Assembly (NCBI GenBank): GCA_003170295.1
Contig: PNAJ01000148.1
Location: forward strand, 3,946-67,945
Length of the DNA stretch: 64,000 nt
Source: Bryobacterales bacterium
GTDB lineage: Bacteria > Acidobacteriota > Terriglobia > Bryobacterales > Bryobacteraceae
Direction of reading: 5' to 3'
Shown here: one piece after another, positions 14,122 to 38,822 of the stretch
Layout: the number at the start of each line of letters is the position of its first letter
Position numbering within the stretch: position 1 is the first letter of the stretch
Notes under the pieces: model-generated
What the model was told of the DNA's origin: nothing
Seen by the model: the letters and a program-made list of their open reading frames with translations, nothing else
Database searches by the model: none
Made by a program: the position numbers and the translations under genes

Positions 14122-14196
<75 letters not shown>

Positions 14197-14261
14197 TCTT
14201 TTCAATCACTTGGGGATAAAAGCCCACGATCTGTCACTCCAGTCACTCCATTAGGCAGCCA

Positions 14262-14480
14262 GCACTTCAGATTCGAGTTTTCCAACCGCCTCTGAACGCT
14301 GCCGCAAATCCGACTTCGTATAAACATCTAAGCGGACCCCAAGGCTGTGGCCCAACTGATCGGCCACCACCTTTGGATCGATGCCAGCCCTCCTTAGAAA
14401 GGCTCGCATGGGTCCGGCGCATCACTTGAAAATTTGCCCACTCTAACCGTTGCGCTTCGGCAATCTGGTGGAGTGTCATC
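14262..14480 (-). pseudogene. Tyrosine recombinase/integrase, C-terminal remnant (frameshifted)
   Basis: The minus strand reads ..VMRRTHASL.. in one frame, then AGIDPKVVADQLGHSLGVRLDVYTKS..* in another. This is the R-H-..-Y catalytic tail of phage-type integrases. No intact N-terminal part is present. Confidence 0.6.
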
Positions 14481-14790: not shown

Positions 14791-15966
14791 TCAGTCTGGC
14801 GACCGGACGGATGCCTCGGCGGTCTGAAGGTCGAGGCCCACGCGCTCGCCGTTGATCAGGACGACGCTCGCGTCCAGCAATTGTTGCCCGGTGAGGTCGA
14901 ATTGCGCGTAACTGCGCAGAGCGCTCAAAGGAAATATGAATTCCACTGCCTCGCCGCCTTCCGCATTGGCGCCTGCCATGCGAACACTGGTGCTGAAATC
15001 AATTCCGCTGAAGTCGACGCTGTCTTTGAAGTAGGCGAGAACAGGGCGGACCAGGTGCGCGACGTGACGATCGAACGCCAGCGCGGCCAGCTTGTATTGC
15101 GATCCGGCATCGGATGCCGCGAGAGTCGTCGCGATCGGGATCTCCAGATATTGGCCGCCGCGAAACGCAATGAAAGATGGGGGAGCATAGGGCACGAAGT
15201 GCGCCTGTTGATCGAGATCCTTCAGCATCCTGGCCAGCGCATCGCGATAGTCGGATACCGGCTTCGATTCCGTTTCCAACTTCGCAGGCGCGCTGGGGAA
15301 CCGCGGTTCCGGTTTGGCGGACACCACGGACACCGGTATCGCCTGACCATCTTGTCGCTCGAAAGGCAAGAACGAAATCGGAGTGCGATTGAGGTATGCG
15401 GTTCCCTCCTGCACTGCGGCGGCGCGCCCGGCTTCATCGCGAGCCTCCACCAGGCGCTGCGCCGATGCCTTTGGCAGGATCAGGACGACATTTTCCGCCG
15501 ATTCCGTCTCGACCCCCAATACCTTCCTGATCACGTGGTGGGATATTTCAAGTGCGAACGCTTCCGGAACGTCGGCCCGCGCGAGGGCGGGTGCGGCGGC
15601 CTGCAGGATCGGCAGCATGACGTCGCGAAACGTTTGGCGCGTCCGTTCCTCCTTGCTCATCCGCTCGGCCGAATAAGCCGCGAAGTAATTCCCGGTGATC
15701 TTGAGAACCGTCTGTCCTTGATATTTATCGAATTGAATCGAGCGCTGATCGCTGCGCTCCTGCTCCCGCTCAGTCAGGTCCAGTTTGCGGCTGAAGTAGA
15801 AATGATACGGAAACTCGTGTTTGCCGAGCGCCGCGGTAATCGCGTGCAACTCCTCCAGATGGCTCTGCTGCAATGCGCGGATCGAGGGGTCCGCGATCTC
15901 GGCCGGCGATAACACTTGCCCGGTCGCTTGCCAAGCCAGAATCGCGAAAAGGCTAAGGATTCGCAT
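14791..15966 (-). CDS. Secreted hypothetical protein, last gene of the respiratory operon
   Basis: Signal peptide MRILSLFAILAWQATGQ. 14-nt overlap with the upstream gene. No recognisable cofactor motif. Confidence 0.6.
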   Translation of the reverse strand: MRILSLFAILAWQATGQVLSPAEIADPSIRALQQSHLEELHAITAALGKHEFPYHFYFSRKLDLTEREQERSDQRSIQFDKYQGQTVLKITGNYFAAYSAERMSKEERTRQTFRDVMLPILQAAAPALARADVPEAFALEISHHVIRKVLGVETESAENVVLILPKASAQRLVEARDEAGRAAAVQEGTAYLNRTPISFLPFERQDGQAIPVSVVSAKPEPRFPSAPAKLETESKPVSDYRDALARMLKDLDQQAHFVPYAPPSFIAFRGGQYLEIPIATTLAASDAGSQYKLAALAFDRHVAHLVRPVLAYFKDSVDFSGIDFSTSVRMAGANAEGGEAVEFIFPLSALRSYAQFDLTGQQLLDASVVLINGERVGLDLQTAEASVRSPD

Positions 15967-16672
15967 TAAATACTCCTTGGGGACGATAAGGTGGATCCGC
16001 GACCGCGCGGATATAAGCCGTCAACGCTTCAATGTCGCTCGCGGAAAGCGTAGGGCTATAAGGCGGCATCTCCGGCGATTTGCTGAGCGCGGCGCCGCCA
16101 TGGGTGATGATGGCAACTAGATTGGCGCGACTGATCTGGTTCAACGTCGCGCCATCGGAAAAAGCGTGCGGTGCGACGCTCAAATTGTCGTGGTTCGAAA
16201 CTCTTTCCGCGGTGGATTCGGAATTGTGGCATCGCGAACAGTATTTCTCATTCAACACCTGTCCCAGAGTCTGCTGGTAATCCAGAGCGATTTCAGCGAA
16301 CGTCACCTGAACCCGTTTCCCGGATTTGTCTTGCGTTGTGGCGACCAGCGAGGTTCTGCCGGATGCACCGCCCAGCCGGACCGTAGTGCTGAACTGGCCG
16401 TCGCTTCCCGTGAGTCCCGAGGGCGGATCGAAGTGCGCGCCGTCCATCGAGCTGAATTGCACCAACGCGCCGGCGACTCCCGTACCTTGCGCGTCGTTGA
16501 CTTGGGCGACCACCGGCTGATCGAGCGTCGCACCGGCGCCGGCCGTCTGCTTTTCCCCGCTGATGCCGACGATTGCCACACCGAACCCCGAGGCCACAGG
16601 CGCCGATGAGGACGATGGCGTCCGGTTGCATCCCGCTGCTGCCAGCAGCAGCAACAATGCGGCGGCCCTCAT
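15953..16672 (-). CDS. Lipoprotein with Ig-like (Big_1-like) domain and C-terminal monohaem cytochrome c
   Basis: Lipobox LLLAAAGC at the internal Met. An invasin-like beta domain is followed by CSRCH and a distal EMPPY Met-ligand motif. ATGA overlap with the upstream gene at 16669-16672. Confidence 0.75.
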   Translation of the reverse strand: MRAAALLLLLAAAGCNRTPSSSSAPVASGFGVAIVGISGEKQTAGAGATLDQPVVAQVNDAQGTGVAGALVQFSSMDGAHFDPPSGLTGSDGQFSTTVRLGGASGRTSLVATTQDKSGKRVQVTFAEIALDYQQTLGQVLNEKYCSRCHNSESTAERVSNHDNLSVAPHAFSDGATLNQISRANLVAIITHGGAALSKSPEMPPYSPTLSASDIEALTAYIRAVADPPYRPQGVFNANP

Positions 16673-18710
16673 CTCGATGCTCCTTTTCGAGGCGCGGCTT
16701 TTTGTTCCATTAAGAACGCCGTGATGGCGCGCGCATCCTCGTCGTTCATGTTCCAGTTCACCTCCAGAGTGCCTGGACGCAGCGCCTGCGCATTCTTCAG
16801 CCAGTGGAATATCCACTCCGGATTCAGCCTCAATCCCACCTCGGTGAGCGTCGGACCGATGTAGCCCTTGTCTTTAGCGGGATCGAGAATATGGCACGAA
16901 TTGCAGGCGTACTTGCCGTAATAAAGATCCTTGCCGTGCGCCGAATCGCCGCCCGCGAATTTCGCGGCGCCATCGAACGCGGCAGTCTGATACACAGTCA
17001 TGATGTAATCGGCCAGGACGCTAGCCTCTTCGTCGGTCATGTTGAACTTAGGCATGCGGCGGATCAGCGTTGGCCGAAGCGTGTTGGGGCGCTTCAAAAA
17101 ACTCACGAGCCAGCCTCGTTGTACCGAGCTCCCTTCCCACGTCAGCTCCGGCGCCATCGAGCCTCCGCGTCCATTGATTTCGTGACAACTGAAGCAGCGC
17201 ATGTCCGTCATCAACTGCCCCGCCCGCCCCGCCGGCTGATAGGTCGATGGTGGCGCGGCCTGGATTCGCAACGTGGCAGGCAACGTCTTTGCGCGAGTGG
17301 TCTGCGCGAGCAGCGCCGTCACCAGCGAGTCGACCTGCGAATCGGATAACGTGAACTTCGGCATCTTCAACGCGTTTCCGAATGACCGCGGGTTCCGGAT
17401 CTTGGCCGAGATGTAATCCGGCACCGTATGCGCCATCCCCGGCGCGAACAGGATCTTCGCGAGCGGCAGACTGCCCACGGCCGTCAATTCGGGCGCGAAA
17501 TTATCCGCGTGCGCGACGCCGTTGATTTCGTGGCACGACGCGCATCCGCGCTCGCTCACCAGCGTTTTGCCGTGTGCGATTTGCGCGGCCGTAGCCGTGT
17601 CCATGTGAACGTCCTTGAGAAAATCGGAATCCGTTTTGCTCCCGAGAAAACCCATCACGAGGCCAACGTCTTTTTCCTCGAAACGATAGTGCGGCATTGC
17701 TGTCTCGGGATCGTAAACCTTGGGATTGCGCAGCCAATCCGCCAGCCACTCCGGTTTGACCTTCGACCCGACCCGCGTCAACTCCGGTCCGATATTTCCT
17801 CCCGTCATCAGTCCCGCGGCGTTCTGCATTGCGTGGCAGGACGCGCAGAACGATTCCCCGTACACGCTCGATCCCTGCTGCACCGCCGCCGTATCGTCCT
17901 GCTTCGGAACCGCCGGAGTCTTGCGCGGCGCACCCGCAATATAAGGTGTGCTCTGGTTGATCAGAAACGCGGAAATATCGCGGGCGTCCTCGTCGCTTAA
18001 CTGGAAATTGGGCATGGTGGCCGTCGTCGCATACGCCTGCGGATTCTTGATCCATGCGAAAATCCATTCCCGCGTCGTCTTCTCCGCGACGTGCGCCAGC
18101 GACGGAGGATCGTCGGTCGCCGTCATTACGCGGCCTTCGGGCGATGCGATTTTATGGCAATGGACGCAGCCATACCGCGCCAGCATGTCTCTTCCCGCAT
18201 TGAGTTGAGGCGTTCCTTCGAGCGGTCGTTCGTGACACTGCCCGCACGACGATTCGACGTAGCGCGCCGGCAAAATCGCCTGTTCCCAAGCCTTTGTGCT
18301 GCTGTGTGCGTCCTCCACCGTCGTCGCGAAACCCTGTCCCCGATGGCACATCACGCATCCGAATTCGGTCAAGGAATGCGGAATCGGCGGATGCGGACGG
18401 AACGGCTGCGCCGCGACCCCGGCCAGCGACGCTTCCTTCAATCCCGAGTGACAAGTCGCGCAGCGGTCGACCACATCCAACTCCGGCAGCCAGATCTGTT
18501 GCACTCCTCCCTGAAATCGCCGCGCGAGCGACACGCCGTCGCTGCGATTGCGAATCAGGCTCTGGTATTCGTGCTGATAGTGCAGCCATTCGCGAAAATG
18601 ATCCTTCGCCGGCACCACCGCGAGCATCACCACGAGCACGACGCTCAGGGACCCGAACGCGCGCGCGCTGTCCCCGAACAAGAACTTCCATGCAGTGCGG
18701 ATTTTTTCGG

Positions 18711-18714
<4 letters not shown>
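16669..18714 (-). CDS. Membrane-anchored octahaem cytochrome c (4 clustered haems plus 4 class-I c domains)
   Basis: Eight CxxCH motifs: CATCH, CVMCH, CGQCH, CVHCH, CASCH, CASCH, CFSCH, CNSCH. The later domains carry MP.F Met-ligand motifs. N-terminal TM helix. ATGA overlap at 18711-18714. Confidence 0.85.
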
Positions 18715-19407
<693 letters not shown>

Positions 19408-19415
<8 letters not shown>

Positions 19416-20145
19416 GGGTTTTCTCTCCGGTGTGCAATCCGCCGTCCTTTCGGATTCGCCAGAAGTGAACCGCCAGGAACACCACGGCGATCAGCGGCAG
19501 GATCACGCAATGCAACACGTAAAATCGCAGCAGCGCATTGGCGTTCACCGTGTTGCCTCCCAAAATCAGGAAACGCGTTTTAGCCCCCATCAACGGCACC
19601 GCGGACATGATGTTGGAACCCACCGTGATCGCCCAGAACGCCAGTTGATCCCACGGCAGCAGGTATCCGGTGTAGCTCAGGAACAGTGTCAGCATGAGCA
19701 GCACCACGCCCACCACCCAGTTAAATTCGCGTGGCGGACGATACGCGCCGCGGTAGAACACTTTGAACATGTGCGCGAACACCAGCAGCACCATCGCATG
19801 CGCGCTCCAGCGGTGCAGATTCCGCAGGAACACGCCCGCCGAGACCACGAACTGCAAATCCTTCATGTCCGCGTAGCCTTGCGGAACCGAAGGATGGTAA
19901 TACAGCATCAGCAGAATTCCCGTGACCACCAGAATCAGAAAGCAGCCCAGGCTCAGCGTCCCCAAATACCAGGTCACGCCGAAATCCAGCGCCCTCCGCC
20001 GCACCTTCACCGACGCCAGGTGCATGAACACGTTCTGCTGAACCGCCAGCGACCGGTGCAGATTGGTATCGCCCGTTCCCGCCCGGAACACCGAACGCCA
20101 CACGCGCGAGTTGCGTACGCCAACCACCGCCTCAGAGAGTTTCAT
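19408..20145 (-). CDS. Cytochrome b6-type (N-terminal four-helix haem-binding core)
   Basis: Helix [18 protein letters not shown] has a His-His spacing of 14. Helix [18 protein letters not shown] has a spacing of 15, as in b6-type proteins. [11 protein letters not shown] motif. Confidence 0.9.
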
Positions 20146-20149
20146 CGTG

Positions 20150-20638
20150 TTAAATCCTGACGAACTGTTTTTGCGTCAGAGGCTCGCTGCGGTCGATCAG
20201 CAGATTGCCATCGTCGTTCACCCACGTCTTCAACCACGGTAGAGGTCGCGGAGCCGGCCCCTCGAACTTGATTCCATCCGCATGGAATTTGCTGCCGTGG
20301 CACGGACACGCGATAATGCCGAGGTCGGGTTTCCACGCCGTGAGACATCCCAGGTGCGTACACACCGCCGAGAGCGCATAAATGCCTTCGGCCCGATGCA
20401 CGATATAGAGGCCACTCGCCACATCGGGTGTTACCGAATCCAGAGGATAGCGATCGGGCTTCCCCGCATCGACAATCGGAGACGGTTCATACAACGCGTT
20501 CGGCGAGAGGAACGAGTAGCCGAATACGGCCGACCCGGCCCCCGCGATCGCTACCGCTCCGAGGCCGACGGCCGTGAACCTGCGGCGGCTGCATTCTTCG
20601 CAAGCGCCGCTGCAAGCCTTTTTTGCTTCCCCTGGCAT
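20150..20638 (-). CDS. Rieske [2Fe-2S] protein with Tat signal
   Basis: CTHLGC ... CPCHGSKF boxes. [11 protein letters not shown] twin-arginine motif. An unusual Cys-rich tail, CSGACEEC, precedes the RR motif. Confidence 0.9.
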
Positions 20639-20648
20639 CTCATTCTCC

Positions 20649-22568
20649 TCATTCCGAAAAAACCGGCGCTTGAAGCTTCATCGAATACGCTTCCATCGTG
20701 ATCGTGTTCACCGGGCATCGCTCCGCGCACAGCCCGCACCGGATGCACCGCGTTTCATCCTTCAACATGGCCGCGCCGGTCACGATCCCGAGTTCCTCCG
20801 CGGCCACGCCGTCCAACTCCACGCGGAAAATTCCGCTGTCACCGCCAATCTGTTCGAGCACGCCGGGCGGGAACTCAATCCGGTCGAGCGAGACCAGCTG
20901 GATGCAGTTCTCCGGGCACACATCCACGCAGCCTCCGCACAGGATGCATTGCGATCCGTCCGCTTCGTTGCCCTCGAACACCGTGTTTATCCAGCAACGC
21001 AGGCAGCGACGCGCCTCGCGGCGGGCCGTCTCCTCGTCGTAGACCAACTCGACTTCGGTCACCCCAGTGCGCCGGTCCAGAGGAAGCGTCGGAATCGTCT
21101 GCCGCCCGATCTCCATGTAGTCCGGATACATTTTGTGATGCTCCAGAATCTCGACTTCGATCTCCGGCTCATCATGTTTCCGCCCCGTCAGGCGCTCGTC
21201 GATTCCGTTCGCGATCCGCTTGCCGTCGCCCACGCTGTCGATGATCAGCCGCGGCCCGAAAACGCAATCCCCTCCCGCGAAAACGCCCGCCGCGCTGGTC
21301 ATCAATGTCCGGCGGTCGGCGACGATCAAACCACGGGGCGAAATGTCGACGCCGTCCTCCGGCTTCAAAAAATCGAGCCTCGGAGCTTGACCGATCGCCA
21401 GAATCACTGTGTCGCATTCAATCGTCGTCTCGCTGCCCTCTTGAAACGTAGGATTGAATTTCCCTTGGGCGTCGAACACGGCCTTCGTCCGGATCGTTTC
21501 GAGGCCCACCACCTTGCCGTCGCGGCCCAGTACCCGCACGGGACCTTGCCCGTCGTGCATCCGCACGCCCTCGATCTCCGCCTCTTCGATTTCTTCAGAC
21601 GCCGCCGGCATCTCCTCGCGCCTCTCGATGCACACGATGTTCACCTCGCGCGCGCCCAAACGCAGCGCGGAGAGCGACACGTCCACCATCTCGCGCGTGG
21701 CCACCGCCGCGATATTTTCTTCGCTCGGCGTCGCGCCCTCGTCTTCCCCGCCGTGCTGCTTCAGTACTTCGCGAACCGCGCTCCGAGCCACGTCCATCGC
21801 GACGTTTCCTCCGCCGATCACCACCACCCTTTCGCCGATGCTGAACCGGTATCCCAGGTTCGCGTTGAGTAAAAATTCAATTCCTTTATGAACTCCGTCC
21901 AAATCGACTCCAGGAATCGAGAGGTCGCGGCTGCGATGCGCTCCCACCGCGAGCACCACGGCATCGAAGCCTTGCGCGCGCAGTCCGGAGACCGTAAAAT
22001 CGCGGCCCGCGGCCGTATTCAGCTTCAGGGTGACATCCCCGGCCTCCAGGATTTCGCGAATCTGCGCCTCCACCACCGCGCGCGGAAGCCGGTACTCGGG
22101 AATGCCCAAATGGAGCATCCCGCCCGCGACCTGCGCCGCCTCGAAGATCGTGATCGAGTAACCCATCAGCGCCAGGTCGTACGCCGCCGACAATCCCACT
22201 GGCCCGCTCCCGATAATCGCGACCTTGTAAGGAAGCTTTTCGACGCTACAGCGCTTCGGCTCGAGAGGGTTCCGCGACTCCGGCCCGTACCGCTCCGTGA
22301 GAAAACGTTTCAACGCCCGGATCGAGATCGGTTTGTCGATGGCGCCGCGGCGGCAAGCGGTCTCGCATGGGTGCGCGCACACCCGCCCGCACACGCTCGC
22401 CATCGGGTTCGGATCGCGCGCGACCCGGTACGCCTCCTCGAATCGCCCATCCGCGATCAGCGAAACGTACTTCCCGGCATTGGTGCCAGCCGGGCATGCC
22501 ATCATGCAAGGGAAGTTCGTGTTGAGCCATTCGCGGTCGACGCGCTTGTCTTTCAGGCGTTCGAGCAT
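20649..22568 (-). CDS. GltD-like NAD(P)H-dependent oxidoreductase fused to a 2x[4Fe-4S] ferredoxin domain
   Basis: N-terminal CMMACPAG...CGRVCAHPCETAC (Fer4_20-like). Two Rossmann motifs, IIGSGPVGLSAA and VIGGGNVAMD. C-terminal CILCGGCVDVCP and CIRCGLCAERCP. No signal peptide. Confidence 0.9.
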   Translation of the reverse strand: MLERLKDKRVDREWLNTNFPCMMACPAGTNAGKYVSLIADGRFEEAYRVARDPNPMASVCGRVCAHPCETACRRGAIDKPISIRALKRFLTERYGPESRNPLEPKRCSVEKLPYKVAIIGSGPVGLSAAYDLALMGYSITIFEAAQVAGGMLHLGIPEYRLPRAVVEAQIREILEAGDVTLKLNTAAGRDFTVSGLRAQGFDAVVLAVGAHRSRDLSIPGVDLDGVHKGIEFLLNANLGYRFSIGERVVVIGGGNVAMDVARSAVREVLKQHGGEDEGATPSEENIAAVATREMVDVSLSALRLGAREVNIVCIERREEMPAASEEIEEAEIEGVRMHDGQGPVRVLGRDGKVVGLETIRTKAVFDAQGKFNPTFQEGSETTIECDTVILAIGQAPRLDFLKPEDGVDISPRGLIVADRRTLMTSAAGVFAGGDCVFGPRLIIDSVGDGKRIANGIDERLTGRKHDEPEIEVEILEHHKMYPDYMEIGRQTIPTLPLDRRTGVTEVELVYDEETARREARRCLRCWINTVFEGNEADGSQCILCGGCVDVCPENCIQLVSLDRIEFPPGVLEQIGGDSGIFRVELDGVAAEELGIVTGAAMLKDETRCIRCGLCAERCPVNTITMEAYSMKLQAPVFSE

Positions 22569-22573
22569 GGCCT

Positions 22574-23140
22574 CTATTTCGCCAGACTGAACGCCACCGT
22601 CGCGCTACCGGCAAGGGTCACCGGTTTAGTTTGGATTTTCATCCCTTCGTGCCATGCCGATACTGAATAGCTTCCATCCGGCACGTTCTCGATTTTGAAA
22701 TTTCCAGACGCATCTGCGATGGCGTAATACGGAGTCGGCGACACGATTATGTATCCCGACATTTCCGGATGTACGTTGCACAGCAGAGGCACCGCGCCCA
22801 CCGTGTCGAATTTGAAGGAGCGCTCTTCTCCGGTCGGCCAGGTGCCCATGTTGTGGCTCAACTTTTTGTTGCCGCTGATCGACGGCCAGAAGATGTTGTG
22901 TTGCACTTTGTCGCTGTTCAAAAATTGCACCGTCGAGCCGAGCTGCACCGCCAGTACGTGCGGCTGAAACAAGAGCGACTTCTGATCCATAACGACCGGC
23001 TTCGCCGCCGCCGGAAATGTCTTTCCCGCAATCGCCTCTACATACACCACCGAGCCCGCCTTGCCGGGGCTCACAGTTCCCGAAATGACGCCTGCTCTGG
23101 TCAGAATCGCTACTGCAAACAGCGGAATGATTTTTTTCAT
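22574..23140 (-). CDS. Secreted type-1 copper (cupredoxin) protein with C-terminal CarboxypepD_reg-like domain
   Basis: Signal peptide. Ligand pattern H (VQHNIF) ... C-x2-H-x2-M (LLCNVHPEM). The tail GNFKIENVPDGSYSVSAW follows. Confidence 0.75.
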   Translation of the reverse strand: MKKIIPLFAVAILTRAGVISGTVSPGKAGSVVYVEAIAGKTFPAAAKPVVMDQKSLLFQPHVLAVQLGSTVQFLNSDKVQHNIFWPSISGNKKLSHNMGTWPTGEERSFKFDTVGAVPLLCNVHPEMSGYIIVSPTPYYAIADASGNFKIENVPDGSYSVSAWHEGMKIQTKPVTLAGSATVAFSLAK

Positions 23141-23148
23141 AGGTCCTT

Positions 23149-24759
23149 TCAGTACACAAATTCGAGCGCGAACAACACCGTGTTCACGCGAAACGGGTTC
23201 GCTGCTAACGGGTTTCCGTTGGGAAGGCTCGCCAGAGTCACAAACTGCCGCGGCCGGATCTGGTATTCCATGGAAACCTTGATGTTCGGGTGAATCAGGA
23301 ACTGCACGCCGGGAGTAAATCGGTTCCGGCTTGAATTGTAGGGCGCGAAATAGGACGTGTTCGTCGCAAAATCCAGACCGTTAATACGATCCGCGGTCGA
23401 GTTCACCTGATCCCAGCGCATGATCGCCATCAGCCAAGGCTTCATCAGATAATCGGCCTGCATAAAGCCTCCATTAAAGGTGGCCGGAACGCCGCGCGAA
23501 AACCCCGCAGTGGTCGTGGTGGTCGGATCGATAGGCAAAGGGATCGGCGCGCCCGTCGCATCCACCGGCAGCATGTTCGAATCGTGCCCCACCATATATA
23601 GCCCGTAGAGATTGAACGTCCTGTAGTTGAAGCTGAAATCTCCGCCTGCGCGGTAATACGGCTCCCGGTTGTTGAAGAACGTGTTAGCCGTCGCGGGAAC
23701 CGTTTCGAGCGAGTTCCCGTGCAAATAGAAGGTCCCGAGGTTCAAATAGGTGTGATCGTGAGGACCCGTCGCACCGGCCGCTTGGATGTCTTTCCGAATC
23801 TTGGGATCGCTCTCCAGATTGAAGCGGTAAGACGCACGCGCATAGACGTTCTTGATGCCTGAATCGGAGCTGAACCCCACTCCGCCGCCCGCACTTGCCG
23901 TCGCCGATGGAACAAACGGAAACTGATTCGATCCCTGAGAGACTCCAGTAGTGTTTTGATCGAAAATCGCTACCGAATAGTGGTATCCGCTGTAGGTATG
24001 ACCGCCACTCAACTCAAAGCCTCGCGCCGCGTTGGCCAAAGCAGACTGATTCGCCACGTTTTGCTGCCTTGCTCCGATGTTGGCTTGCTGATAAATGTCG
24101 TAGGGACTGAGGTTTATCCCTCGCGCCTGCGTGAACGGCAGGTCCAGCTCGAACTGCCCCGCGCGGAGAGAAAGCAGGTCGTTCGGCAACTTCAGCAGGC
24201 GTCCGACGTTGACGAATTTCAGGTAGGCGTCTCCCAATCCACCGTTACTGTTGTTGCCGGAGACGCTGAGATCGTCGTCCACCCAGAATGCGATGTCGCT
24301 TCCGAAATTTCCAGCTGTAAAAATGCTGAAAAGTCCGGCTTGAAAATCCGTTGCTGGTATCACTCCCGGGACTGTGCCTGGAGCCGTTAAGGTGTCGAAC
24401 CGGTTCCGGTTCGACGTCACTTGAAAGAACTGGTTGTAGCGCAGTCCTATGGGAGGCATACCCGGCATGGTCCCCGGCCACACCGAATTGGGAAACGATT
24501 CTTTGTTCGCCGGAGCCCCCAGCATCACCGGCGCTTCCTTAAGGAAGGTATCGTCGTCGGTTGGAAACTTGAAACCCGCGTCTTTAAAGGCTTTACCGAA
24601 ATCGTTCAGCTTCGGAAAATCCATGTGGCATGTCTGGCAGGACGTCTGATACTTCCGCGCAAACGGCGGAATTGCGTAACTCTTCGACGAAGAGAGTAAT
24701 ACGAGCATCGCGGCCGCTGCCGCCACACTCGGAACAAACGTTCGGACAAACCTGAACAC
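23149..24759 (-). CDS. Outer-membrane beta-barrel protein with N-terminal monohaem c motif (Cyc2-like fused cytochrome-porin candidate)
   Basis: Signal peptide ending SYA. Mature N-terminus IPPFARKYQTSCQTCH. About 480 aa of alternating beta-strand-like sequence rich in G/Y/N/F. C-terminal ALEFVY has a terminal aromatic. GGAGG lies 5 nt before the GTG at 24759. Confidence 0.7.
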   Translation of the reverse strand: MFRFVRTFVPSVAAAAAMLVLLSSSKSYAIPPFARKYQTSCQTCHMDFPKLNDFGKAFKDAGFKFPTDDDTFLKEAPVMLGAPANKESFPNSVWPGTMPGMPPIGLRYNQFFQVTSNRNRFDTLTAPGTVPGVIPATDFQAGLFSIFTAGNFGSDIAFWVDDDLSVSGNNSNGGLGDAYLKFVNVGRLLKLPNDLLSLRAGQFELDLPFTQARGINLSPYDIYQQANIGARQQNVANQSALANAARGFELSGGHTYSGYHYSVAIFDQNTTGVSQGSNQFPFVPSATASAGGGVGFSSDSGIKNVYARASYRFNLESDPKIRKDIQAAGATGPHDHTYLNLGTFYLHGNSLETVPATANTFFNNREPYYRAGGDFSFNYRTFNLYGLYMVGHDSNMLPVDATGAPIPLPIDPTTTTTAGFSRGVPATFNGGFMQADYLMKPWLMAIMRWDQVNSTADRINGLDFATNTSYFAPYNSSRNRFTPGVQFLIHPNIKVSMEYQIRPRQFVTLASLPNGNPLAANPFRVNTVLFALEFVY

Positions 24760-25020
24760 AGTCACCTCCACTTAGCTTTGGGGACTGCATCGCACTTGGA
24801 TGGCCTTTGCACAAATGCCCCTGTTTTTAAGGTTGGCGCAGGGAGACGCCCGCGCGATATCGCACAGCGTGCGTCAGATGACGCCATATAATGACCAAAT
24901 AATGCCGAAAAAGTGGCTTGATGGAGCCTTAAATGACCATATCTCGGCCACGTGCTGGTCCTGCCGCGATTGAGCCAACCTGCGGGCCTGGACTCGACCT
25001 CGACAATCACCTTCTGTACT

Positions 25021-25061
25021 GCTGGACGTCGCCGGTTCAAACTCGGTTTCCCGCTCCATCT
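25021..25061 (+). other. Partial tRNA-Gly 3' half (attR-like direct repeat)
   Basis: GCTGGACGTCGCCGGTTCaAaCtCGGTtTCCCGCTCCATCT compared with tRNA positions 14159-14199. No matching 5' half lies upstream. Confidence 0.7.
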
Positions 25062-29290: not shown

Positions 29291-30307
29291 TTACGAGTAC
29301 CCGTCACTTTCCGAACGCACCTTACCCGCGAAGTGGCGATATACGTAGAAAAAATATCCGGCCGCGAGCACGATCCCGGGAATAAACCATCGTAAACCGA
29401 TCGAGAGTCCGTAGGGAGCCGCTGCCGCATTGTAGATCGTGAGCCCGAATTGCGGATCGCCGTTAGAGGGAAGCACGTAGGGATAGACACCTAACACGGC
29501 ACCGGCGAGCATCGAGACGATGAATCCGCACGACGCCAGAAACCGTGTCCGGTCGTGCTTCGCTCCCCATCCTGAGACAGCCAGCGCGACTGCCGCCAAG
29601 GGAAGCAACCATGCGCCGCGCACCGCACGCGGTTGCACCACAGCGCTGAGCGCGAGAACCAGGATCGTCATTGGGACGACAAGCCATCGCAGCCGGTTCG
29701 CCAAGCTCCGGGCCCGGGCCTGCACGTCGCCTTGGGTTTTGTATGCGACCCACAGTGCGCCATGCAACATGAGCGTGACGAAGGCCGCGACTCCGATGGG
29801 AACTGTGTACCAATCAAGAATCCCCGCGTCGTGCTGCGGCGTGAAGTTGGTCCACAAGGGCAGGAAAAAGTAGCCTTCAGCGTTCAAAGGCACGCCGCGA
29901 ATCACGTTGCCGAGCGCCGCTCCGAAAAAAATCGCTAGCAGCGAGCTGGAGAACGCAAATACCGCGTCCGCGAGCTGTTTCCAGAGGTCATGTTCGACGT
30001 GACTGCGCATTTCGATTGAGATGCCGCGAAGGATCAACAACCACAGAACCATCATCAGAGGCAGGTAGAATCCGCTGAAGCTGGACGCATAGAGAAGGGG
30101 GAACGCGAAATAGAGAGTCCCTCCGGCGGCGAGCAGCCATACTTCGTTTCCATCCCAGAACGGACCAATTGACTTGAGTACAGTCTTCCGGTCAGCATCG
30201 TTTCGCGCGACCAACAAATAGACCATGCCGACGCCAAGATCGAAACCGTCGAGAACCACGTAGGCGGTGATCATCAACACGATGAGCCAGAACCACAGTG
30301 TTTCCAT
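29291..30307 (-). CDS. cydB: Cytochrome bd ubiquinol oxidase subunit II
   Basis: METLWFWLIVLMITAYVVLDGFDLGVG N-terminus typical of CydB. Abuts cydA with no gap. Confidence 0.9.
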   Translation of the reverse strand: METLWFWLIVLMITAYVVLDGFDLGVGMVYLLVARNDADRKTVLKSIGPFWDGNEVWLLAAGGTLYFAFPLLYASSFSGFYLPLMMVLWLLILRGISIEMRSHVEHDLWKQLADAVFAFSSSLLAIFFGAALGNVIRGVPLNAEGYFFLPLWTNFTPQHDAGILDWYTVPIGVAAFVTLMLHGALWVAYKTQGDVQARARSLANRLRWLVVPMTILVLALSAVVQPRAVRGAWLLPLAAVALAVSGWGAKHDRTRFLASCGFIVSMLAGAVLGVYPYVLPSNGDPQFGLTIYNAAAAPYGLSIGLRWFIPGIVLAAGYFFYVYRHFAGKVRSESDGYS

Positions 30308-31636
30308 TTAAGCCTCCTCCCCCTCGGGTCCATGTTCGATTTCGCGCGTGACTAAGAACAGGAAAAGTACGCCGAGCACCATGTAAAGGCCCATAAAGCC
30401 GATCAGCGTAAACAATCCGTTGCCAGCGGAAACTTGGAGCGACGAGCCTTGCGCGGTTCGCATGATTCCATAGATCAACCAGGGCTGGCGGCCAATTTCC
30501 GCCGTCATCCATCCGGCGGTTGTGGCGATGTAGGGGAACGGCAGGGCGAGCATCAGCATCCACAAAACCGGACGCGCCGTGAACAATCGTCCGCCGCGCA
30601 GCAGCAGCAGCGAAATGCCCATCAACGCGAGCATCATCATGCCTAAACCGACCATAATGTGATAGGAAAAGTACAGTAACGGCACGTTATCGGGCCATAA
30701 ATCGCGTGGAAAATCGCGCAAACCCTTCACCTCCGCGCCCCACCTCTTATACGTGAGAAAACTCAGGGCTTTGGGAATCAGGATTGGATTATCGAGCTTC
30801 ATTTTTTCCATGTCGGGCTGTCCGATAATTGCCAGCGGAGCGCCCTGTTTGGTATCGAAAAGGCCTTCCATCGCGGCCAGCGTTACAGGCTGACTCTGCA
30901 GCACCATTTTCCCTTGTTGATCTCCGGTGGGAAAGATGAGCAGTGCTACCGCGATCGCTCCGGCAATCACGCCCGCGCGCACAAACGTCCGCCCGTAACC
31001 GGCATGTTTGTTCGTGAGCAAATAGTATGCGCCAATCGAAGCCATGACGAAACTACCCGTCACCACGGCTGCGATCATGTTGTGCAGATACTGCCACTGG
31101 CCCCAGGGATTGAGAAGGAATGCCCAGATGTCCGTGAGTATAATCTCGCCTTTCGGGCCCAACGAATAACCGGTGGGGTGCTGCATCCAGGCGTCGGTCA
31201 TAATGATGAAGAATCCGGATAGCCAGGATCCAAGAAAGACCAGAAACGCGGAACACCAGTGGGCGAGCGGGCTCAAGCGTTTTTCTCCGAAGATAAACAG
31301 GCCGAGAAAGCTCGATTCCAGGAAGAAGGAGAACACGCCTTCCATGGCGAGCGTCTGTCCGATGACTCCTCCGGCGGAGCGCGAGAAGCGAGCCCAGTTG
31401 GTGCCGAACTGAAACTCCATCGGAATTCCGGTGACCACGCCGAATGTGAAATTGATGGCGAAGATTTTCGCCCAGAAACGCGCGGCCCGCGCGTAGTGCT
31501 GGTTGCCGGTTCGGAGCGCAAGGGTTTTCAAAACGACGATCAGCAGCGCAAGGCCCATCGTCAATTGAGGAAATAAGTAGTGAAATGTGATGGTGAACGC
31601 GAAATGGAGGCGATGAACTGCGAGAGCCGAGTCCAT
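30308..31636 (-). CDS. cydA: Cytochrome bd ubiquinol oxidase subunit I
   Basis: LHRLHFAFTITFHYLFPQLTMGL, GWMTAEIGRQPW and a Q-loop region. Confidence 0.92.
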   Translation of the reverse strand: MDSALAVHRLHFAFTITFHYLFPQLTMGLALLIVVLKTLALRTGNQHYARAARFWAKIFAINFTFGVVTGIPMEFQFGTNWARFSRSAGGVIGQTLAMEGVFSFFLESSFLGLFIFGEKRLSPLAHWCSAFLVFLGSWLSGFFIIMTDAWMQHPTGYSLGPKGEIILTDIWAFLLNPWGQWQYLHNMIAAVVTGSFVMASIGAYYLLTNKHAGYGRTFVRAGVIAGAIAVALLIFPTGDQQGKMVLQSQPVTLAAMEGLFDTKQGAPLAIIGQPDMEKMKLDNPILIPKALSFLTYKRWGAEVKGLRDFPRDLWPDNVPLLYFSYHIMVGLGMMMLALMGISLLLLRGGRLFTARPVLWMLMLALPFPYIATTAGWMTAEIGRQPWLIYGIMRTAQGSSLQVSAGNGLFTLIGFMGLYMVLGVLFLFLVTREIEHGPEGEEA

Positions 31637-37979: not shown

Positions 37980-38009
37980 TGACCGCTTAGGATAGCGCAG
38001 TCCCTTCGG

Positions 38010-38780: not shown

Positions 38781-38822
38781 ATAGTCGAAGAGAGGAGGCA
38801 CGCAAAGGGCCCCTCTATCTCC

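What the first reader, a model, noticed from the sequence alone, without database searches (positions are those of the whole stretch)
14791..24771. One 9-gene operon combines a Cyc2-like porin-cytochrome, a type-1 copper protein, a GltD-like NAD(P)H oxidoreductase, a split b6-type Rieske/cyt b complex and ten c-haem sites
**Seen in sequence.** Nine same-strand ORFs are packed with junctions of -14 to +10 nt. There are ATGA overlaps at 16669-16672 and 18711-18714 and an 8-nt overlap at 19408-19415. The order is:
- an outer-membrane barrel candidate with CQTCH
- a cupredoxin (H...C-x2-H-x2-M)
- a cytoplasmic GltD-like flavoprotein with two CxxCxxCxxxCP clusters
- a Tat Rieske protein (CTHLGC/CPCHGS)
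- cytochrome b with His spacings of 14 and 15
- subunit IV (PWYFL)
- an octahaem c
- an Ig-like plus CSRCH lipoprotein
- an unknown secreted protein

**Established knowledge.** A Cyc2 fused cytochrome-porin, a periplasmic cupredoxin and a bc-type complex run in reverse form the textbook uphill route to NAD(P)H in acidophilic iron oxidisers, where these parts sit at separate loci. Rieske/cyt b operons carrying a GltD-like NAD(P) oxidoreductase subunit have been discussed for anammox planctomycetes.

**Inference.** All parts here sit in one transcription unit. This suggests a self-contained module that takes electrons from an extracellular or periplasmic donor and delivers them to quinone and/or NAD(P)+. 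I do not know of this composite architecture being described, but I cannot search.
Basis: partly seen in the sequence, partly recalled or inferred. Interest (0 to 1): 0.9.

Follow-up and report, generated by a model that had tools for sequence, protein, structure and literature searches.

The report
Outer-membrane cytochrome wired to respiratory complex
A nine-gene block conserved in dozens of peat and soil Acidobacteriota joins an outer-membrane haem-porin of the iron-oxidase (Cyc2) type and a blue-copper protein to an anammox-like membrane complex with an NAD(P)H-handling subunit; it looks like an undescribed electrical link between iron outside the cell and the cell's quinone and NAD(P)H pools.

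Summary

**What the parts are**
- The 540-aa protein meets the published sequence and fold criteria for Cyc2-type fused cytochrome-porins. The FeGenie HMMs could not be run.
- The cupredoxin keeps its His-Cys-His-Met ligands.
- The Rieske, b6-type cytochrome b, five-helix subunit IV, octahaem c and GltD/NfnB-like flavoprotein match the anammox-type Rieske/cyt b complexes. The closest solved Rieske proteins are Kustd1480 and Kuste4569.

**Conservation**
- 48 of 58 Acidobacteriota genomes with enough flank carry all nine genes in the same order.
- All six relatives examined at about 25-30% identity, two of them from MAGs labelled Bacteroidetes and Ignavibacteriae, still pair the porin-cytochrome and cupredoxin with a Rieske/cyt b/multihaem complex.
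- P1-P2-P9 also occurs alone.

**New here**
- In this window the operon lies between tRNA-Gly and a 41-nt copy of its 3' half, next to an integrase remnant.

**Open questions**
- Direction of electron flow is unresolved. I favour quinol oxidation with export to a high-potential extracellular acceptor such as Fe(III). Fe(II) uptake is nearly as likely.
- I found no published description of this architecture.

The parts
23149..24771 (-). P1: Cyc2-type fused monohaem cytochrome-porin (540 aa). It has a signal peptide, AIPPFARKY-QTS-CQTCH-MDF-PKL, and then a 16-strand barrel.
   Evidence: Sequence. The motif definition is in PMC8406198. The motif is kept across the 50%-identity cluster representatives. 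The AF2 model has pLDDT 79 and pTM 0.81 with 16 strands. The top PDB fold hit is OprP 2o4v, and OprO 4rjw is also hit.
22574..23140 (-). P2: secreted type-1 copper protein (plastocyanin/amicyanin-like) fused to a CarboxypepD_reg-like beta-sandwich.
   Evidence: Pfam Copper-bind scores 27.7 bits against a cut-off of 21.2. The weak best PDB hits are plastocyanin and amicyanin. H81, C121, H124 and M127 are conserved in 79 homologues and in all distant versions.
20649..22568 (-). P3: cytoplasmic GltD/NfnB-type FAD and NAD(P)-binding iron-sulfur flavoprotein. It has an N-terminal Fer4_20 domain and a C-terminal 2x[4Fe-4S] ferredoxin domain.
   Evidence: Pfam and NCBIfam. The closest solved relatives are NfnA 9n5u, NfnB-like modules, DPD subunit A and GltD. 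No hydrophobic (TM-like) segment was found.
20150..20638 (-). P4: Tat-exported Rieske [2Fe-2S] protein of the high-potential type (Ser116 present, Phe118 at the Tyr position).
   Evidence: Pfam Rieske. The best PDB hits are 9rk4, which I take to be Kustd1480 from the entry name and PMC12954380 (E 2.4e-24), and 9rk3, taken as Kuste4569 (E 8.4e-21), ahead of b6f Rieske proteins. The Ser/Phe pattern matches that described for Kustd1480.
19408..20145 (-). P5: four-helix b6-type cytochrome b. All four haem-b His ligands are present, the haem-cn cysteine is absent (Tyr60), and His42 in the N-terminal extension is invariant.
   Evidence: Pfam Cytochrome_B at 154 bits. The best NCBIfam match is ExtP, at 262.6 bits against a cut-off of 290.
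18711..19415 (-). P6: subunit IV homologue with about five transmembrane segments and an APWYF motif in place of PEWY.
   Evidence: Pfam Cytochrom_B_C at 22.5 bits against a cut-off of 20.7. A five-helix subunit IV is reported for the anammox complexes.
16669..18714 (-). P7: membrane-anchored octahaem cytochrome c, with four closely spaced multihaem-type sites followed by four class-I cytochrome c domains.
   Evidence: Eight CxxCH at residues 85, 120, 157, 183, 290, 391, 507 and 604, plus an N-terminal TM segment. Eight sites are kept in 48 of 51 homologues. No solved relative was found.
15953..16672 (-). P8: lipoprotein with a Big_1 Ig-like domain and one class-I cytochrome c domain (CSRCH).
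   Evidence: A single CxxCH is present in all 52 homologues.
14791..15966 (-). P9: secreted two-domain protein of unknown fold. It has conserved His-containing motifs (EISHHV, QAHF, FDxHVAHL) and a Pro-rich linker, and it is genetically tied to P1 and P2.
   Evidence: No Pfam, NCBIfam or PDB match, alone or as a 17-sequence profile. The alignment is A4. P1-P2-P9 occurs without P3-P8 in 8 genomes.
24851..24866 (-). Candidate degenerate operator (TGTGCGATATCGCGCG), about 80-95 nt upstream of the P1 start. It is related to palindromes conserved upstream of P1 in relatives.
   Evidence: TGTGA-N6-TCACA occurs at one mismatch or fewer in 35 of 79 upstream regions, against 0.6 expected, and at a fixed distance. 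The Bryobacterales variant is TG[GC]G-N8-C[GC]CA. This part is tentative for the window itself.
14122..14196 (+). tRNA-Gly(CCC). Its 3' half (14159-14199) is one copy of the direct repeat that brackets the operon (attL-like).
   Evidence: Rfam at 64.6 bits, ARAGORN, and repeat family D1.
14267..14480 (-). Frameshifted C-terminal remnant of a tyrosine recombinase (integrase), next to the tRNA.
   Evidence: Frame translations show ...RRTHASL... and ...AGIDPKVVADQLGHSLGVRLDVYTKSD.... This is a motif-level reading only. Pfam gave no hit for the 115-aa ORF.
25021..25061 (.). 41-nt partial copy of the tRNA-Gly 3' half (attR-like). It is 90% identical and lies 10,862 nt from the tRNA copy, just upstream of the P1 regulatory region.
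   Evidence: the repeat finder family D1 and the pairwise alignment.

Best explanation
The nine genes encode one modular electron-transfer chain that runs from the outer membrane to the cytoplasm.

**Outer module (P1, P2, P9)**
- P1 is a Cyc2-type porin with one c-haem, sitting in the outer membrane.
- P2 is a soluble blue-copper carrier.
- P9 is an uncharacterised secreted partner.

**Inner module (P3-P8)**
- It is an anammox-type Rieske/cytochrome b complex: a high-potential Tat Rieske, a b6-type cytochrome b without haem cn, and a five-helix subunit IV.
- It carries a membrane-anchored octahaem c and a lipoprotein monohaem c on the periplasmic side.
- It carries a GltD/NfnB-type NAD(P) flavoprotein on the cytoplasmic side.

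**Preferred mode of action**
- Menaquinol is oxidised at the Qo site.
- The high-potential electron leaves through Rieske, P7/P8, P2 and P1 to a high-potential extracellular or periplasmic oxidant. The most likely oxidant is soluble or complexed Fe(III) in acidic peat.
- The low-potential electron crosses the b haems. It either reduces quinone on the cytoplasmic side or passes through the iron-sulfur chain of P3 to FAD and NAD(P)+, as proposed for the anammox complexes.

**Shown versus inferred**
- Shown: part identities, cofactor motifs, synteny and modularity.
- Inferred: subunit contacts, the path between modules, the substrate and the direction.

The block is inherited as a unit and moves horizontally. 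In this window it lies on a decayed island at tRNA-Gly.
For: **Part identities**.

**Functional linkage**
- Nine-gene synteny in 48 of 58 Acidobacteriota genomes, with non-conserved flanks.
- In 6 of 6 loci examined at about 25-30% P1 identity, a Cyc2-like gene and a cupredoxin/CarboxypepD_reg gene precede Rieske, cyt b, subunit IV, a large multihaem c and a small monohaem c.
- The cytoplasmic partner varies: GltD-like, a small 2x[4Fe-4S] ferredoxin, or none. The periplasmic and outer-membrane chain stays constant. This points to quinone-to-outside exchange as the core function.

**For the outward direction**
- The Rieske has the Ser/Phe signature of Kustd1480, measured at +335 mV. Acidobacteria are reported to use menaquinone (my own knowledge), so a high-potential Rieske would leave a large downhill step for the Rieske-side electron. 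This is the energetic argument made for NAD(P)+ reduction in anammox.
- By the Qo mechanism, NAD(P)+ reduction needs outward flow of the other electron.
- The closest named cytochrome b family is ExtP, from the Geobacter extHIJKLMNOPQS cluster. That cluster likewise joins an outer-membrane porin and c-cytochromes to a Rieske/cyt b core in an organism that exports electrons.
- Reverse use of the quinol, bc1, cupredoxin, Cyc2 chain for Fe(III) reduction has been proposed for Acidithiobacillus ferrooxidans.
- Heterotrophic Acidobacteria (Acidobacterium capsulatum, Acidicapsa spp.) reduce Fe(III) micro-aerobically; the review text retrieved gives no pathway for them.
- The named hosts are all Acidobacteriota MAGs, many with bog, palsa or SPRUCE in their isolate names.
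Against: - Every Cyc2 homologue tested biochemically so far was shown to oxidise Fe(II), not to reduce Fe(III).
- The P1-P2-P9 triad occurs without a local quinol oxidase in 8 genomes. It resembles the front end of the classical Fe(II)-oxidation chain (Cyc2 plus a cupredoxin).
- No expression data, cultured host or biochemistry is available.
- It is not obvious why a heterotroph would need quinol-driven NAD(P)H synthesis.
- P5 lacks the haem-cn cysteine that the anammox models include, so the anammox scheme may not transfer directly.
- The substrate could be something other than iron, such as Mn, humic quinones or copper.
- FeGenie Cyc2 HMMs and a Cyc2 phylogeny were not run.
Confidence: 0.4

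Rival explanations
1. The module takes up electrons from Fe(II). Fe2+ is oxidised by P1, and electrons pass through P2 and P8/P7 to the Rieske centre. Menaquinone is then reduced at Qo in reverse. The second electron comes from NAD(P)H through P3 and the b haems (confurcation), or from a proton-motive-force-driven reverse Q cycle. Alternatively, P2, P7 and P8 hand most electrons to a terminal oxidase, and the complex only tops up the quinone pool.
For: - Cyc2, Cyt572 and Cyc2PV-1 are all experimentally Fe(II) oxidases.
- P1 carries the motif that PMC8406198 describes as unique to Cyc2.
- Cyc2 plus a cupredoxin plus a bc-type complex is the textbook uphill branch in A. ferrooxidans, and its petI operon even carries an NAD-related sdrA gene.
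- P1-P2-P9 alone looks like a stand-alone Fe(II)-oxidising front end.
- Fe(II) is long-lived in acidic, micro-oxic peat (my own knowledge).
- A cytochrome bd quinol oxidase lies 4.5 kb upstream.
Against: - Reducing menaquinone (about -70 mV) from Fe(II) is strongly uphill. In this mode the complex consumes NAD(P)H or proton-motive force and cannot make NAD(P)H in the same turnover, by the Qo mechanism.
- The named hosts are all uncultured Acidobacteriota MAGs, a phylum best known for heterotrophs (my own knowledge), and no carbon-fixation genes lie in the window.
- A direct route to a cytochrome c oxidase would not need a dedicated Rieske/cyt b complex, yet that link is the most conserved feature across phyla.
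Confidence: 0.33
2. The block is simply these organisms' version of respiratory complex III, with its own periplasmic carriers (P2, P7, P8) feeding terminal oxidases or periplasmic reductases. P1 would be an accessory outer-membrane protein, for example for iron or copper handling or redox sensing, and not part of the main electron path.
For: - Rieske/cyt b complexes with multihaem c subunits and nearby oxidoreductase genes occur in many lineages.
- Cupredoxins and class-I cytochromes c are ordinary carriers between complex III and oxidases.
- The cydAB genes are nearby.
Against: - The module has non-conserved flanks, lies on an island in this window, and no isolate name appeared among the closest P1 homologues. 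That pattern suggests an accessory rather than a housekeeping complex.
- The porin-cytochrome is the first gene of the block and stays linked to the complex down to about 25% identity and into MAGs labelled Bacteroidetes and Ignavibacteriae.
Confidence: 0.12
3. The same wire serves a non-iron extracellular redox partner, such as Mn(II)/Mn(III,IV), humic or quinone-like organic matter, or copper, in either direction.
For: - Nothing in the sequences specifies iron.
- Many host MAGs carry bog, palsa or peat-experiment names, and peat is rich in redox-active organic matter (my own knowledge).
- P9 has conserved His-containing motifs that could bind a metal.
- The related Geobacter ext cluster was linked experimentally to selenite and tellurite reduction, not only to iron.
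Against: - PMC8406198 predicts from structural analysis that monohaem Cyc2 acts on dissolved Fe2+.
- Large humic molecules would not be expected to enter a 16-strand barrel (my inference).
Confidence: 0.13

Closest known systems
Anammox Rieske/cytochrome b complexes Kustd1480-1485 and Kuste4569-4574 (Kuenenia stuttgartiensis)
   Same: - A b6-like four-helix cytochrome b with a separate five-helix subunit IV.
- A hexa- or octahaem c in place of cytochrome f.
- A putative NAD(P) oxidoreductase subunit with an iron-sulfur chain encoded in the operon.
- The Rieske is most similar to the two solved anammox Rieske proteins and shares the Ser/Phe pattern of Kustd1480.
- An invariant His lies in the N-terminal extension of cytochrome b, where the anammox models place an extra haem b.
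   Different: - No haem-cn cysteine (Tyr60).
- No HAO-like octahaem subunit.
- The host is a diderm soil bacterium without an anammoxosome.
- The complex is joined in one operon to an outer-membrane porin-cytochrome, a cupredoxin, an Ig-domain cytochrome c lipoprotein and P9. None of these is part of the anammox clusters as described.
Cyc2 / Cyt572 fused cytochrome-porins of iron-oxidising bacteria
   Same: - A signal peptide and a single N-terminal CXXCH.
- The AxPxFAR[Q/K][T/Y] and PxL motifs.
- Length above 365 aa.
- A 16-strand barrel whose closest solved folds are OprP and OprO.
- Acidobacterial homologues of Cyt572 have been noted in a sequence-network study.
   Different: - At 540 aa it is longer than the 430-470 aa typical of its distant relatives.
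- Its host lineages are not among the iron oxidisers named in the Cyc2 papers read here.
- It is the first gene of an operon with a Rieske/cyt b complex, whereas in A. ferrooxidans cyc2 and the pet genes lie in separate operons.
- The cluster assignment (1, 2 or 3) and activity are untested.
Geobacter sulfurreducens extHIJKLMNOPQS cluster
   Same: - One conserved cluster joins an outer-membrane porin with weak similarity to phosphate porins, several c-cytochromes including a lipoprotein cytochrome, a Rieske protein, a cytochrome b and a small membrane subunit.
- ExtP is the best NCBIfam match of P5. ExtQ and ExtS match P6 and P7 weakly.
   Different: - All three matches fall below the curated cut-offs.
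- ExtI has no haem.
- The ext cluster has a rhodanese, a selenocysteine cytochrome and 10- and 12-haem cytochromes.
- It has no cupredoxin, no NAD(P) flavoprotein and no P9.
Acidithiobacillus ferrooxidans rus and petI operons (Cyc2, rusticyanin, CycA1, bc1, NDH-1)
   Same: - The same logical parts list: an outer-membrane Cyc2, a periplasmic cupredoxin, c-cytochromes and a Rieske/cyt b complex linked to NAD(P)H.
- The chain has been proposed to run in both directions.
   Different: - The parts lie in separate operons.
- The complex is a bc1 type with an unsplit cytochrome b and cytochrome c1.
- The cupredoxin is rusticyanin. P2's weak best hits are plastocyanin and amicyanin, and it is fused to a beta-sandwich domain.
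- NADH is made by reversed complex I, not by a flavoprotein docked on the bc complex.
NfnAB / GltD / DPD-type NADPH iron-sulfur flavoproteins
   Same: P3 shares the Fer4_20 two-cluster domain and the FAD and NAD(P)H folds. Its best solved matches are NfnA- and NfnB-like subunits.
   Different: P3 has an extra C-terminal 2x[4Fe-4S] ferredoxin domain, and its gene lies within a membrane-complex operon. No Nfn small subunit or glutamate synthase large subunit is nearby.

Membership tests
Cyc2 fused cytochrome-porin (criteria of Keffer et al. 2021, PMC8406198) | Signal peptide and a single CXXCH near the N-terminus | tested here: met
   There is a hydrophobic N-terminus ending in SYA. CQTCH lies at residues 45-49 and is the only CxxCH. 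This holds in all 82 homologues from the loci.
Cyc2 fused cytochrome-porin (criteria of Keffer et al. 2021, PMC8406198) | AxPxFAR[Q/K][T/Y] motif just upstream of CXXCH, described as unique to Cyc2 | tested here: met
   A33-I-P-P-F-A-R-K-Y41, with five residues between the Arg and the first Cys (definition). The motif is kept in nearly all full-length cluster representatives. Close relatives often have FSR in place of FAR.
Cyc2 fused cytochrome-porin (criteria of Keffer et al. 2021, PMC8406198) | PxL motif four residues after CXXCH | tested here: met
   H49-M-D-F-P53-K-L55. P53 and L55 are invariant in alignment A1.
Cyc2 fused cytochrome-porin (criteria of Keffer et al. 2021, PMC8406198) | Length of at least 365 aa and a 16-stranded porin with OprO/OprP-like fold | tested here: met
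   P1 is 540 aa. The AF2 model from 131 sequences has pLDDT 79.2 and pTM 0.81, with 16 strands from residue 108. The Foldseek top hit is OprP 2o4v (E 2.6e-11), and OprO 4rjw is also hit. This rests on a predicted structure, not a solved one.
Cyc2 fused cytochrome-porin (criteria of Keffer et al. 2021, PMC8406198) | Score above the calibrated FeGenie Cyc2 HMM cut-off, with placement in cluster 1, 2 or 3 | not testable with these tools
Attempts to obtain reference sequences failed.
Cyc2 fused cytochrome-porin (criteria of Keffer et al. 2021, PMC8406198) | Fe(II) oxidase activity and outer-membrane location | not testable with these tools
   This needs biochemistry.
Anammox-type Rieske/cyt b complex with NAD(P) oxidoreductase (Kustd1480-85, Kuste4569-74) | b6-like four-helix cytochrome b plus a separate subunit IV with five helices | tested here: met
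   P5 aligns to cytochrome b6 over residues 57-235 with all four His ligands. P6 matches Cytochrom_B_C and has about five hydrophobic segments.
Anammox-type Rieske/cyt b complex with NAD(P) oxidoreductase (Kustd1480-85, Kuste4569-74) | Putative NAD(P) oxidoreductase with an iron-sulfur chain encoded in the operon | tested here: met
   P3 has Fer4_20, Pyr_redox_2 and two Fer4 domains, and its solved relatives are NfnA/NfnB/GltD.
Anammox-type Rieske/cyt b complex with NAD(P) oxidoreductase (Kustd1480-85, Kuste4569-74) | Hexa- or octahaem c in place of cytochrome f | tested here: met
   P7 has eight CxxCH and an N-terminal anchor. No cytochrome f or c1 is present.
Anammox-type Rieske/cyt b complex with NAD(P) oxidoreductase (Kustd1480-85, Kuste4569-74) | Rieske protein of the Kustd1480/Kuste4569 kind | tested here: met
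   The best PDB matches are 9rk4 (E 2.4e-24) and 9rk3 (E 8.4e-21), which I take to be Kustd1480 and Kuste4569. The next best is a b6f Rieske at 3e-16. Ser116 and Phe118 match the pattern in Kustd1480.
Anammox-type Rieske/cyt b complex with NAD(P) oxidoreductase (Kustd1480-85, Kuste4569-74) | Haem cn on the negative side (Cys equivalent to b6 Cys35) | tested here: not met
   Cys35 of b6 aligns with Tyr60 of P5.
Anammox-type Rieske/cyt b complex with NAD(P) oxidoreductase (Kustd1480-85, Kuste4569-74) | Extra haem b ligated by an N-terminal His of cytochrome b at the dimer interface | tested here: inconclusive
   His42 (NVFMHL) is invariant in 60 homologues and in all six distant versions. No alignment to Kuste4571 or Kustd1481 and no complex model could be made.
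Geobacter Ext cluster (ExtP, ExtQ, ExtS equivalogs) | NCBIfam equivalog scores above the curated cut-offs | tested here: not met
   ExtP scores 262.6 against 290, ExtQ 51 against 150, and ExtS 85.7 against 100.
Type-1 copper (cupredoxin) proteins | Pfam Copper-bind above the gathering score, and His, Cys, His, Met ligands | tested here: met
   The score is 27.7 against 21.2. H81, C121, H124 and M127 align with the plastocyanin ligands and are conserved.
Rusticyanin (the A. ferrooxidans partner of Cyc2) | Sequence membership in the rusticyanin family | tested here: not met
   The only NCBIfam and PDB hits are weak amicyanin and plastocyanin matches. No rusticyanin hit was found.
tRNA-associated integrative genomic island | A tRNA gene at one end, a direct repeat of its 3' part at the other end, and an integrase next to the tRNA | tested here: met
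   tRNA-Gly lies at 14122-14196. The 41-nt repeat is at 14159-14199 and 25021-25061, at 90% identity. An integrase remnant lies at about 14267-14480. The integrase is a frameshifted fragment, so the island is probably no longer mobile. No empty site was found.

The most novel reading that the evidence does not exclude
A widespread respiratory supercomplex family that I could not find described physically links a Cyc2-type outer-membrane haem-porin and a blue-copper protein to a quinol-bifurcating Rieske/cytochrome b complex. More than 500 species-level genomes encode a P1 relative, and the linked complex was seen in every distant locus examined (six). In peat Acidobacteriota it would couple extracellular iron redox chemistry directly to the menaquinone pool and to NAD(P)H. 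It would then be the missing mechanism for iron cycling by these abundant heterotrophs. It would also be a genetically simpler, non-anammox system in which the disputed NAD(P)H-forming mode of such complexes could be tested.
Probability: 0.35. Interest if true: 0.9.

Novelty: new variant of a known kind. Interest (0 to 1): 0.78.

Why it matters
**Open questions this touches**
- Acidobacteriota dominate acidic peat and soil, where iron redox cycling affects carbon storage. They are not regarded as iron oxidisers, and I found no described pathway for the Fe(III) reduction seen in some isolates.
- The function of Rieske/cyt b complexes that carry an NAD(P) oxidoreductase subunit is still open. 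It has so far been studied mainly in slow-growing anammox bacteria.
- What Cyc2 homologues do in organisms that are not iron oxidisers is also unknown.

**What the operon offers**
- It brings all three questions into one conserved, self-contained and apparently horizontally mobile unit of about 10 kb.
- The unit could be cloned, expressed or tracked in peat meta-omics.

**A practical caveat**
- The public gene call for P1 starts after the haem motif. Marker-gene screens that require CXXCH may therefore under-count this family.

Tried and rejected
- **First AF2 run on P1.** It used 28 close homologues and gave pLDDT 41, which was unusable. A 131-sequence alignment fixed this.
- **Direct comparison with a reference Cyc2.** I could not obtain a reference sequence. 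The supplements of PMC8406198 hold none. A full-text search for FARQT/FARKY strings only matched German 'Infarkt'. Cluster look-ups gave no names.
- **Looking for a cultured host.** A Terriglobales P1 profile returned no isolate names. The best 80 genome loci are all MAGs.
- **P9.** There was no Pfam, NCBIfam or PDB match, even as a profile. It is not homologous to the 373-aa protein in the same position of L006.
- **P7.** No solved relative was found.
- **Promoter and terminator scan.** The sigma-70 and terminator consensus scan was uninformative.
- **Regulatory motifs upstream of P1.** The FNR (TTGAT-N4-ATCAA), Fur and TGGCA-N7-TGC sigma-54 patterns were absent. A looser sigma-54-like pattern was mildly enriched and not pursued.
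- **Conserved flanking genes.** None was found.
- **tRNA-derived repeats in other loci.** None was found.
- **Empty-site search for the island.** The metagenome scan gave 0 hits.
- **Readings rejected.**
  - P1 as an ordinary porin with a chance CXXCH: rejected because the motif is invariant across nearly all the full-length cluster representatives inspected.
  - P2 as rusticyanin.
  - P5 as an ExtP equivalog: its score is below the cut-off.
  - Presence of haem cn.
  - The Caldithrix nap-linked Rieske/cyt b cluster as a precedent: it has a different context.

Full report
**1. The observation**

The region holds nine ORFs on the minus strand: P1 23149-24771, P2 22574-23140, P3 20649-22568, P4 20150-20638, P5 19408-20145, P6 18711-19415, P7 16669-18714, P8 15953-16672 and P9 14791-15966.

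- P1 has CQTCH.
- P2 has H81, C121, H124 and M127.
- P3 has two CxxCxxCxxxCP motifs and two dinucleotide-binding folds.
- P4 has a Tat motif with CTHLGC and CPCHGS.
- P5 has His pairs spaced 14 and 15 residues apart.
- P6 has APWYF.
- P7 has eight CxxCH.
- P8 has a lipobox and CSRCH.

Pfam and NCBIfam confirm seven of the nine products and find nothing for P1 and P9. A 310-nt gap precedes P1. The flanking genes are unrelated: peptidases and a TPR protein, with cytochrome bd oxidase genes cydAB lying 4.5 kb upstream. The rest of the window is housekeeping.

**2. P1 is a Cyc2-type cytochrome-porin by the published criteria**

Keffer et al. (PMC8406198) give these criteria:
- a signal peptide;
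- one N-terminal CXXCH;
- an AxPxFAR[Q/K][T/Y] motif upstream, which they say is unique to the family;
- a PxL motif four residues downstream;
- a length of at least 365 aa;
- a 16-strand porin modelled on OprO and OprP.

P1 reads ...SYA-IPPFARKY-QTS-CQTCH-MDF-PKL.... An exhaustive HMMER scan found 1785 50%-identity clusters at E of 1e-3 or less. Nearly all full-length representatives carry AIPxFARKYxTSCxTCHxxFPKLNxFG.

A first structure prediction from 28 close homologues failed, with pLDDT 41. With 131 sequences that included relatives at about 25-30% identity, the model reached pLDDT 79 and pTM 0.81. It has 16 strands starting at residue 108. Its best solved match is OprP 2o4v, and OprO 4rjw is also on the list. 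These are the same templates reported for Cyc2.

I could not run the FeGenie HMMs or obtain a reference Cyc2 sequence. Cluster assignment is therefore open. A network study had already noted that Leptospirillum Cyt572 clusters with acidobacterial homologues. The public gene call for this very protein (P0001, 491 aa) starts after the haem motif.

**3. The inner-membrane part is an anammox-type Rieske/cyt b complex**

- **Rieske (P4).** Its best solved matches are 9rk4 and 9rk3, which I take from the entry names and PMC12954380 to be the Kuenenia proteins Kustd1480 and Kuste4569. These score well ahead of b6f Rieske proteins. P4 has the Ser/Phe second-sphere pattern of Kustd1480, which was measured at +335 mV.
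- **Cytochrome b (P5).** It aligns with cytochrome b6 and keeps all four haem ligands. The haem-cn cysteine is a tyrosine. A His in its N-terminal extension (His42) is invariant in 60 acidobacterial homologues and in all six distant versions. The anammox AlphaFold3 models place an extra haem b on an N-terminal His. Equivalence of the two positions is untested.
- **Subunit IV (P6).** It has about five helices, like the anammox subunit IV.
- **Octahaem c (P7).** It is an anchored octahaem c and takes the place of cytochrome f.
- **Flavoprotein (P3).** It belongs to the NfnB/GltD/DPD family of NADPH iron-sulfur flavoproteins and has an extra C-terminal two-cluster domain.

Dibrova et al. noted that such oxidoreductase genes lie next to small cytochrome b genes 'in many other cases' beyond anammox bacteria. 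This core is therefore a known kind. The best NCBIfam match of P5 is ExtP, from the Geobacter extHIJKLMNOPQS cluster, but the score is below the cut-off.

**4. Conservation and modularity**

A scan of one genome per species found at least 545 genomes with a P1 relative. The best 80 are all Acidobacteriota MAGs (Bryobacterales, Terriglobales and Korobacteraceae), many from bog, palsa and peat samples. Searching P1-P9 against these loci by tblastn gave the following:
- 48 of 58 loci with at least 9 kb downstream have all nine genes in the same order.
- Eight loci have only P1-P2-P9. Two of these have a dihaem protein inserted between P2 and P9.
- One locus lacks P3 and has cytochrome b fused to subunit IV.
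- One locus lacks P9.
- Two loci have P1-P2 only.

Flanking genes are not conserved, so the unit is bounded by P1 and P9. It splits into an outer module (P1, P2, P9) and an inner module (P3-P8).

All six P1 relatives examined at about 25-30% identity, two of them from MAGs labelled Bacteroidetes and Ignavibacteriae, are followed by a cupredoxin/CarboxypepD_reg protein that keeps its copper ligands. After that come Rieske, cytochrome b, subunit IV, a large multihaem c and a small monohaem c. The cytoplasmic partner varies: it is GltD-like in two loci, a 92-95-aa two-cluster ferredoxin in two, and absent in two. The constant feature is therefore the path from the quinol site to the outer membrane. 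The cytoplasmic low-potential outlet is optional.

**5. Mechanism**

- **What is shown.** The parts, their cofactor motifs, their predicted compartments (Sec, Tat, lipobox, TM anchor, and no signal peptide on P3) and their tight genetic coupling.
- **What is inferred.** The order of electron transfer, the substrate and the direction.

By the established Qo-site mechanism, an electron that arrives at the Rieske centre from the periplasm can only reduce quinone together with a second electron from the low-potential haem b. An inward-running complex would therefore consume NAD(P)H or proton-motive force. Making NAD(P)H, as proposed for anammox, needs the Rieske-side electron to leave toward a high-potential acceptor.

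Taking menaquinone at about -70 mV and the Rieske centre at about +300 mV by analogy with Kustd1480, a high-potential extracellular acceptor would suit this scheme. My own rough estimate is that Fe(III) in acidic peat is such an acceptor.

Three further points favour outward flow:
- the ExtP-like cytochrome b;
- the proposed reverse use of the Cyc2 chain in A. ferrooxidans;
- micro-aerobic Fe(III) reduction by acidobacterial isolates, for which the review text retrieved gives no pathway.

I therefore favour quinol oxidation with export of electrons, at confidence 0.40. Fe(II) uptake is almost as likely, at 0.33. All tested Cyc2 proteins are Fe(II) oxidases, and the P1-P2-P9 triad alone looks like the classical front end of iron oxidation. 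An ordinary complex III role (0.12) and a non-iron partner (0.13) remain possible.

**6. New observations beyond the finding**

*Island.* In this window the operon is bracketed by tRNA-Gly(CCC) at 14122-14196 and a 41-nt, 90%-identical copy of its 3' half at 25021-25061. A frameshifted integrase C-terminus lies next to the tRNA. This is the signature of a decayed integrative island of about 10.9 kb.
- L038 also has tRNA-Gly(CCC) directly after P9.
- L006 has integrase genes on both sides of its cluster.
- No empty site was found.

*Candidate operator.* A CRP-type palindrome, TGTGA-N6-TCACA, sits at a fixed distance upstream of P1 in 35 of 79 loci, against 0.6 expected. Most of these loci are Terriglobales. 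Bryobacterales carry TG[GC]G-N8-C[GC]CA, often as two sites. The window has only a degenerate copy at 24851-24866.

**7. Novelty**

None of the literature searches aimed at this architecture, run on the open-access library and bioRxiv, returned a paper that describes an operon joining a Cyc2-type gene to a Rieske/cyt b complex, in Acidobacteriota or elsewhere. The library lacks most subscription journals, so prior description cannot be excluded.

The parts are known kinds. Their conserved combination, its spread across phyla, the P9 family and the mobility are new as far as I can tell. I rate it a new variant of a known kind, with interest 0.78.

Noticed in passing
window 14122-14199, 14267-14480 and 25021-25061: The whole operon lies between tRNA-Gly(CCC) and a 41-nt, 90%-identical direct repeat of the tRNA's 3' half, 10,862 nt away. 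A frameshifted tyrosine-recombinase remnant sits beside the tRNA. Together these are the signature of a decayed integrative genomic island.
   Followed up: yes
loci L027-L087, about 100-130 nt upstream of the P1 start; window 24851-24866: A CRP-type palindrome, TGTGA-N6-TCACA, is conserved at a fixed position upstream of P1 in 35 of 79 loci at one mismatch or fewer, against 0.6 expected. Bryobacterales carry a variant, TG[GC]G-N8-C[GC]CA, often as two sites 30-35 nt apart. The window has only a degenerate copy. L005 has a small cNMP-binding protein gene directly upstream.
   Followed up: partly
L026, L044, L049, L060, L073, L080, L081, L082: P1-P2-P9 occurs as a stand-alone triad without the Rieske/cyt b genes. 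L060 and L080 have a dihaem protein of about 300 aa inserted between P2 and P9. This ties the unknown protein P9 to the porin-cytochrome and the cupredoxin rather than to the membrane complex.
   Followed up: partly
window 23149-24771; public record P0001: The public gene call for this protein is 491 aa and starts at MDFPK, just after the CQTCH motif. Haem-motif filters such as the one in FeGenie would therefore discard it.
   Followed up: partly
window 29291-31636 (-): Cytochrome bd quinol oxidase genes cydA and cydB lie 4.5 kb upstream of the operon on the same strand, outside the island.
   Followed up: no
L090 12675-12962 and L091 14709-14987: In the MAGs labelled Bacteroidetes and Ignavibacteriae, a 92-95-aa 2x[4Fe-4S] ferredoxin gene sits among the Rieske/cyt b genes and no GltD-like gene is present. 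L090 also has two tandem Cyc2-like genes and two P2-like genes. L091 has a DoxX gene inserted between cytochrome b and subunit IV.
   Followed up: no
L032 5743-7104; L088 15389-16639: Cytochrome b and subunit IV are fused into one ORF (453 and 416 aa) in some versions of the cluster. This shows both split and unsplit forms within one family.
   Followed up: no
window 33739-38801 (-): A run of four ORFs (743, 367, 318 and 263 aa) with no Pfam match lies in a stretch with unusually high AT skew (0.19-0.21). In the same-genome locus L001, the 743-aa ORF is adjacent to a TIR_2-domain gene and an HU-like gene.
   Followed up: no
L005 694-2073; L006 2004-3101 and 20221-21326: Mobile-element genes lie near other copies of the module. 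L005 has a group II intron reverse transcriptase upstream. L006 has phage-type integrases on both sides.
   Followed up: no
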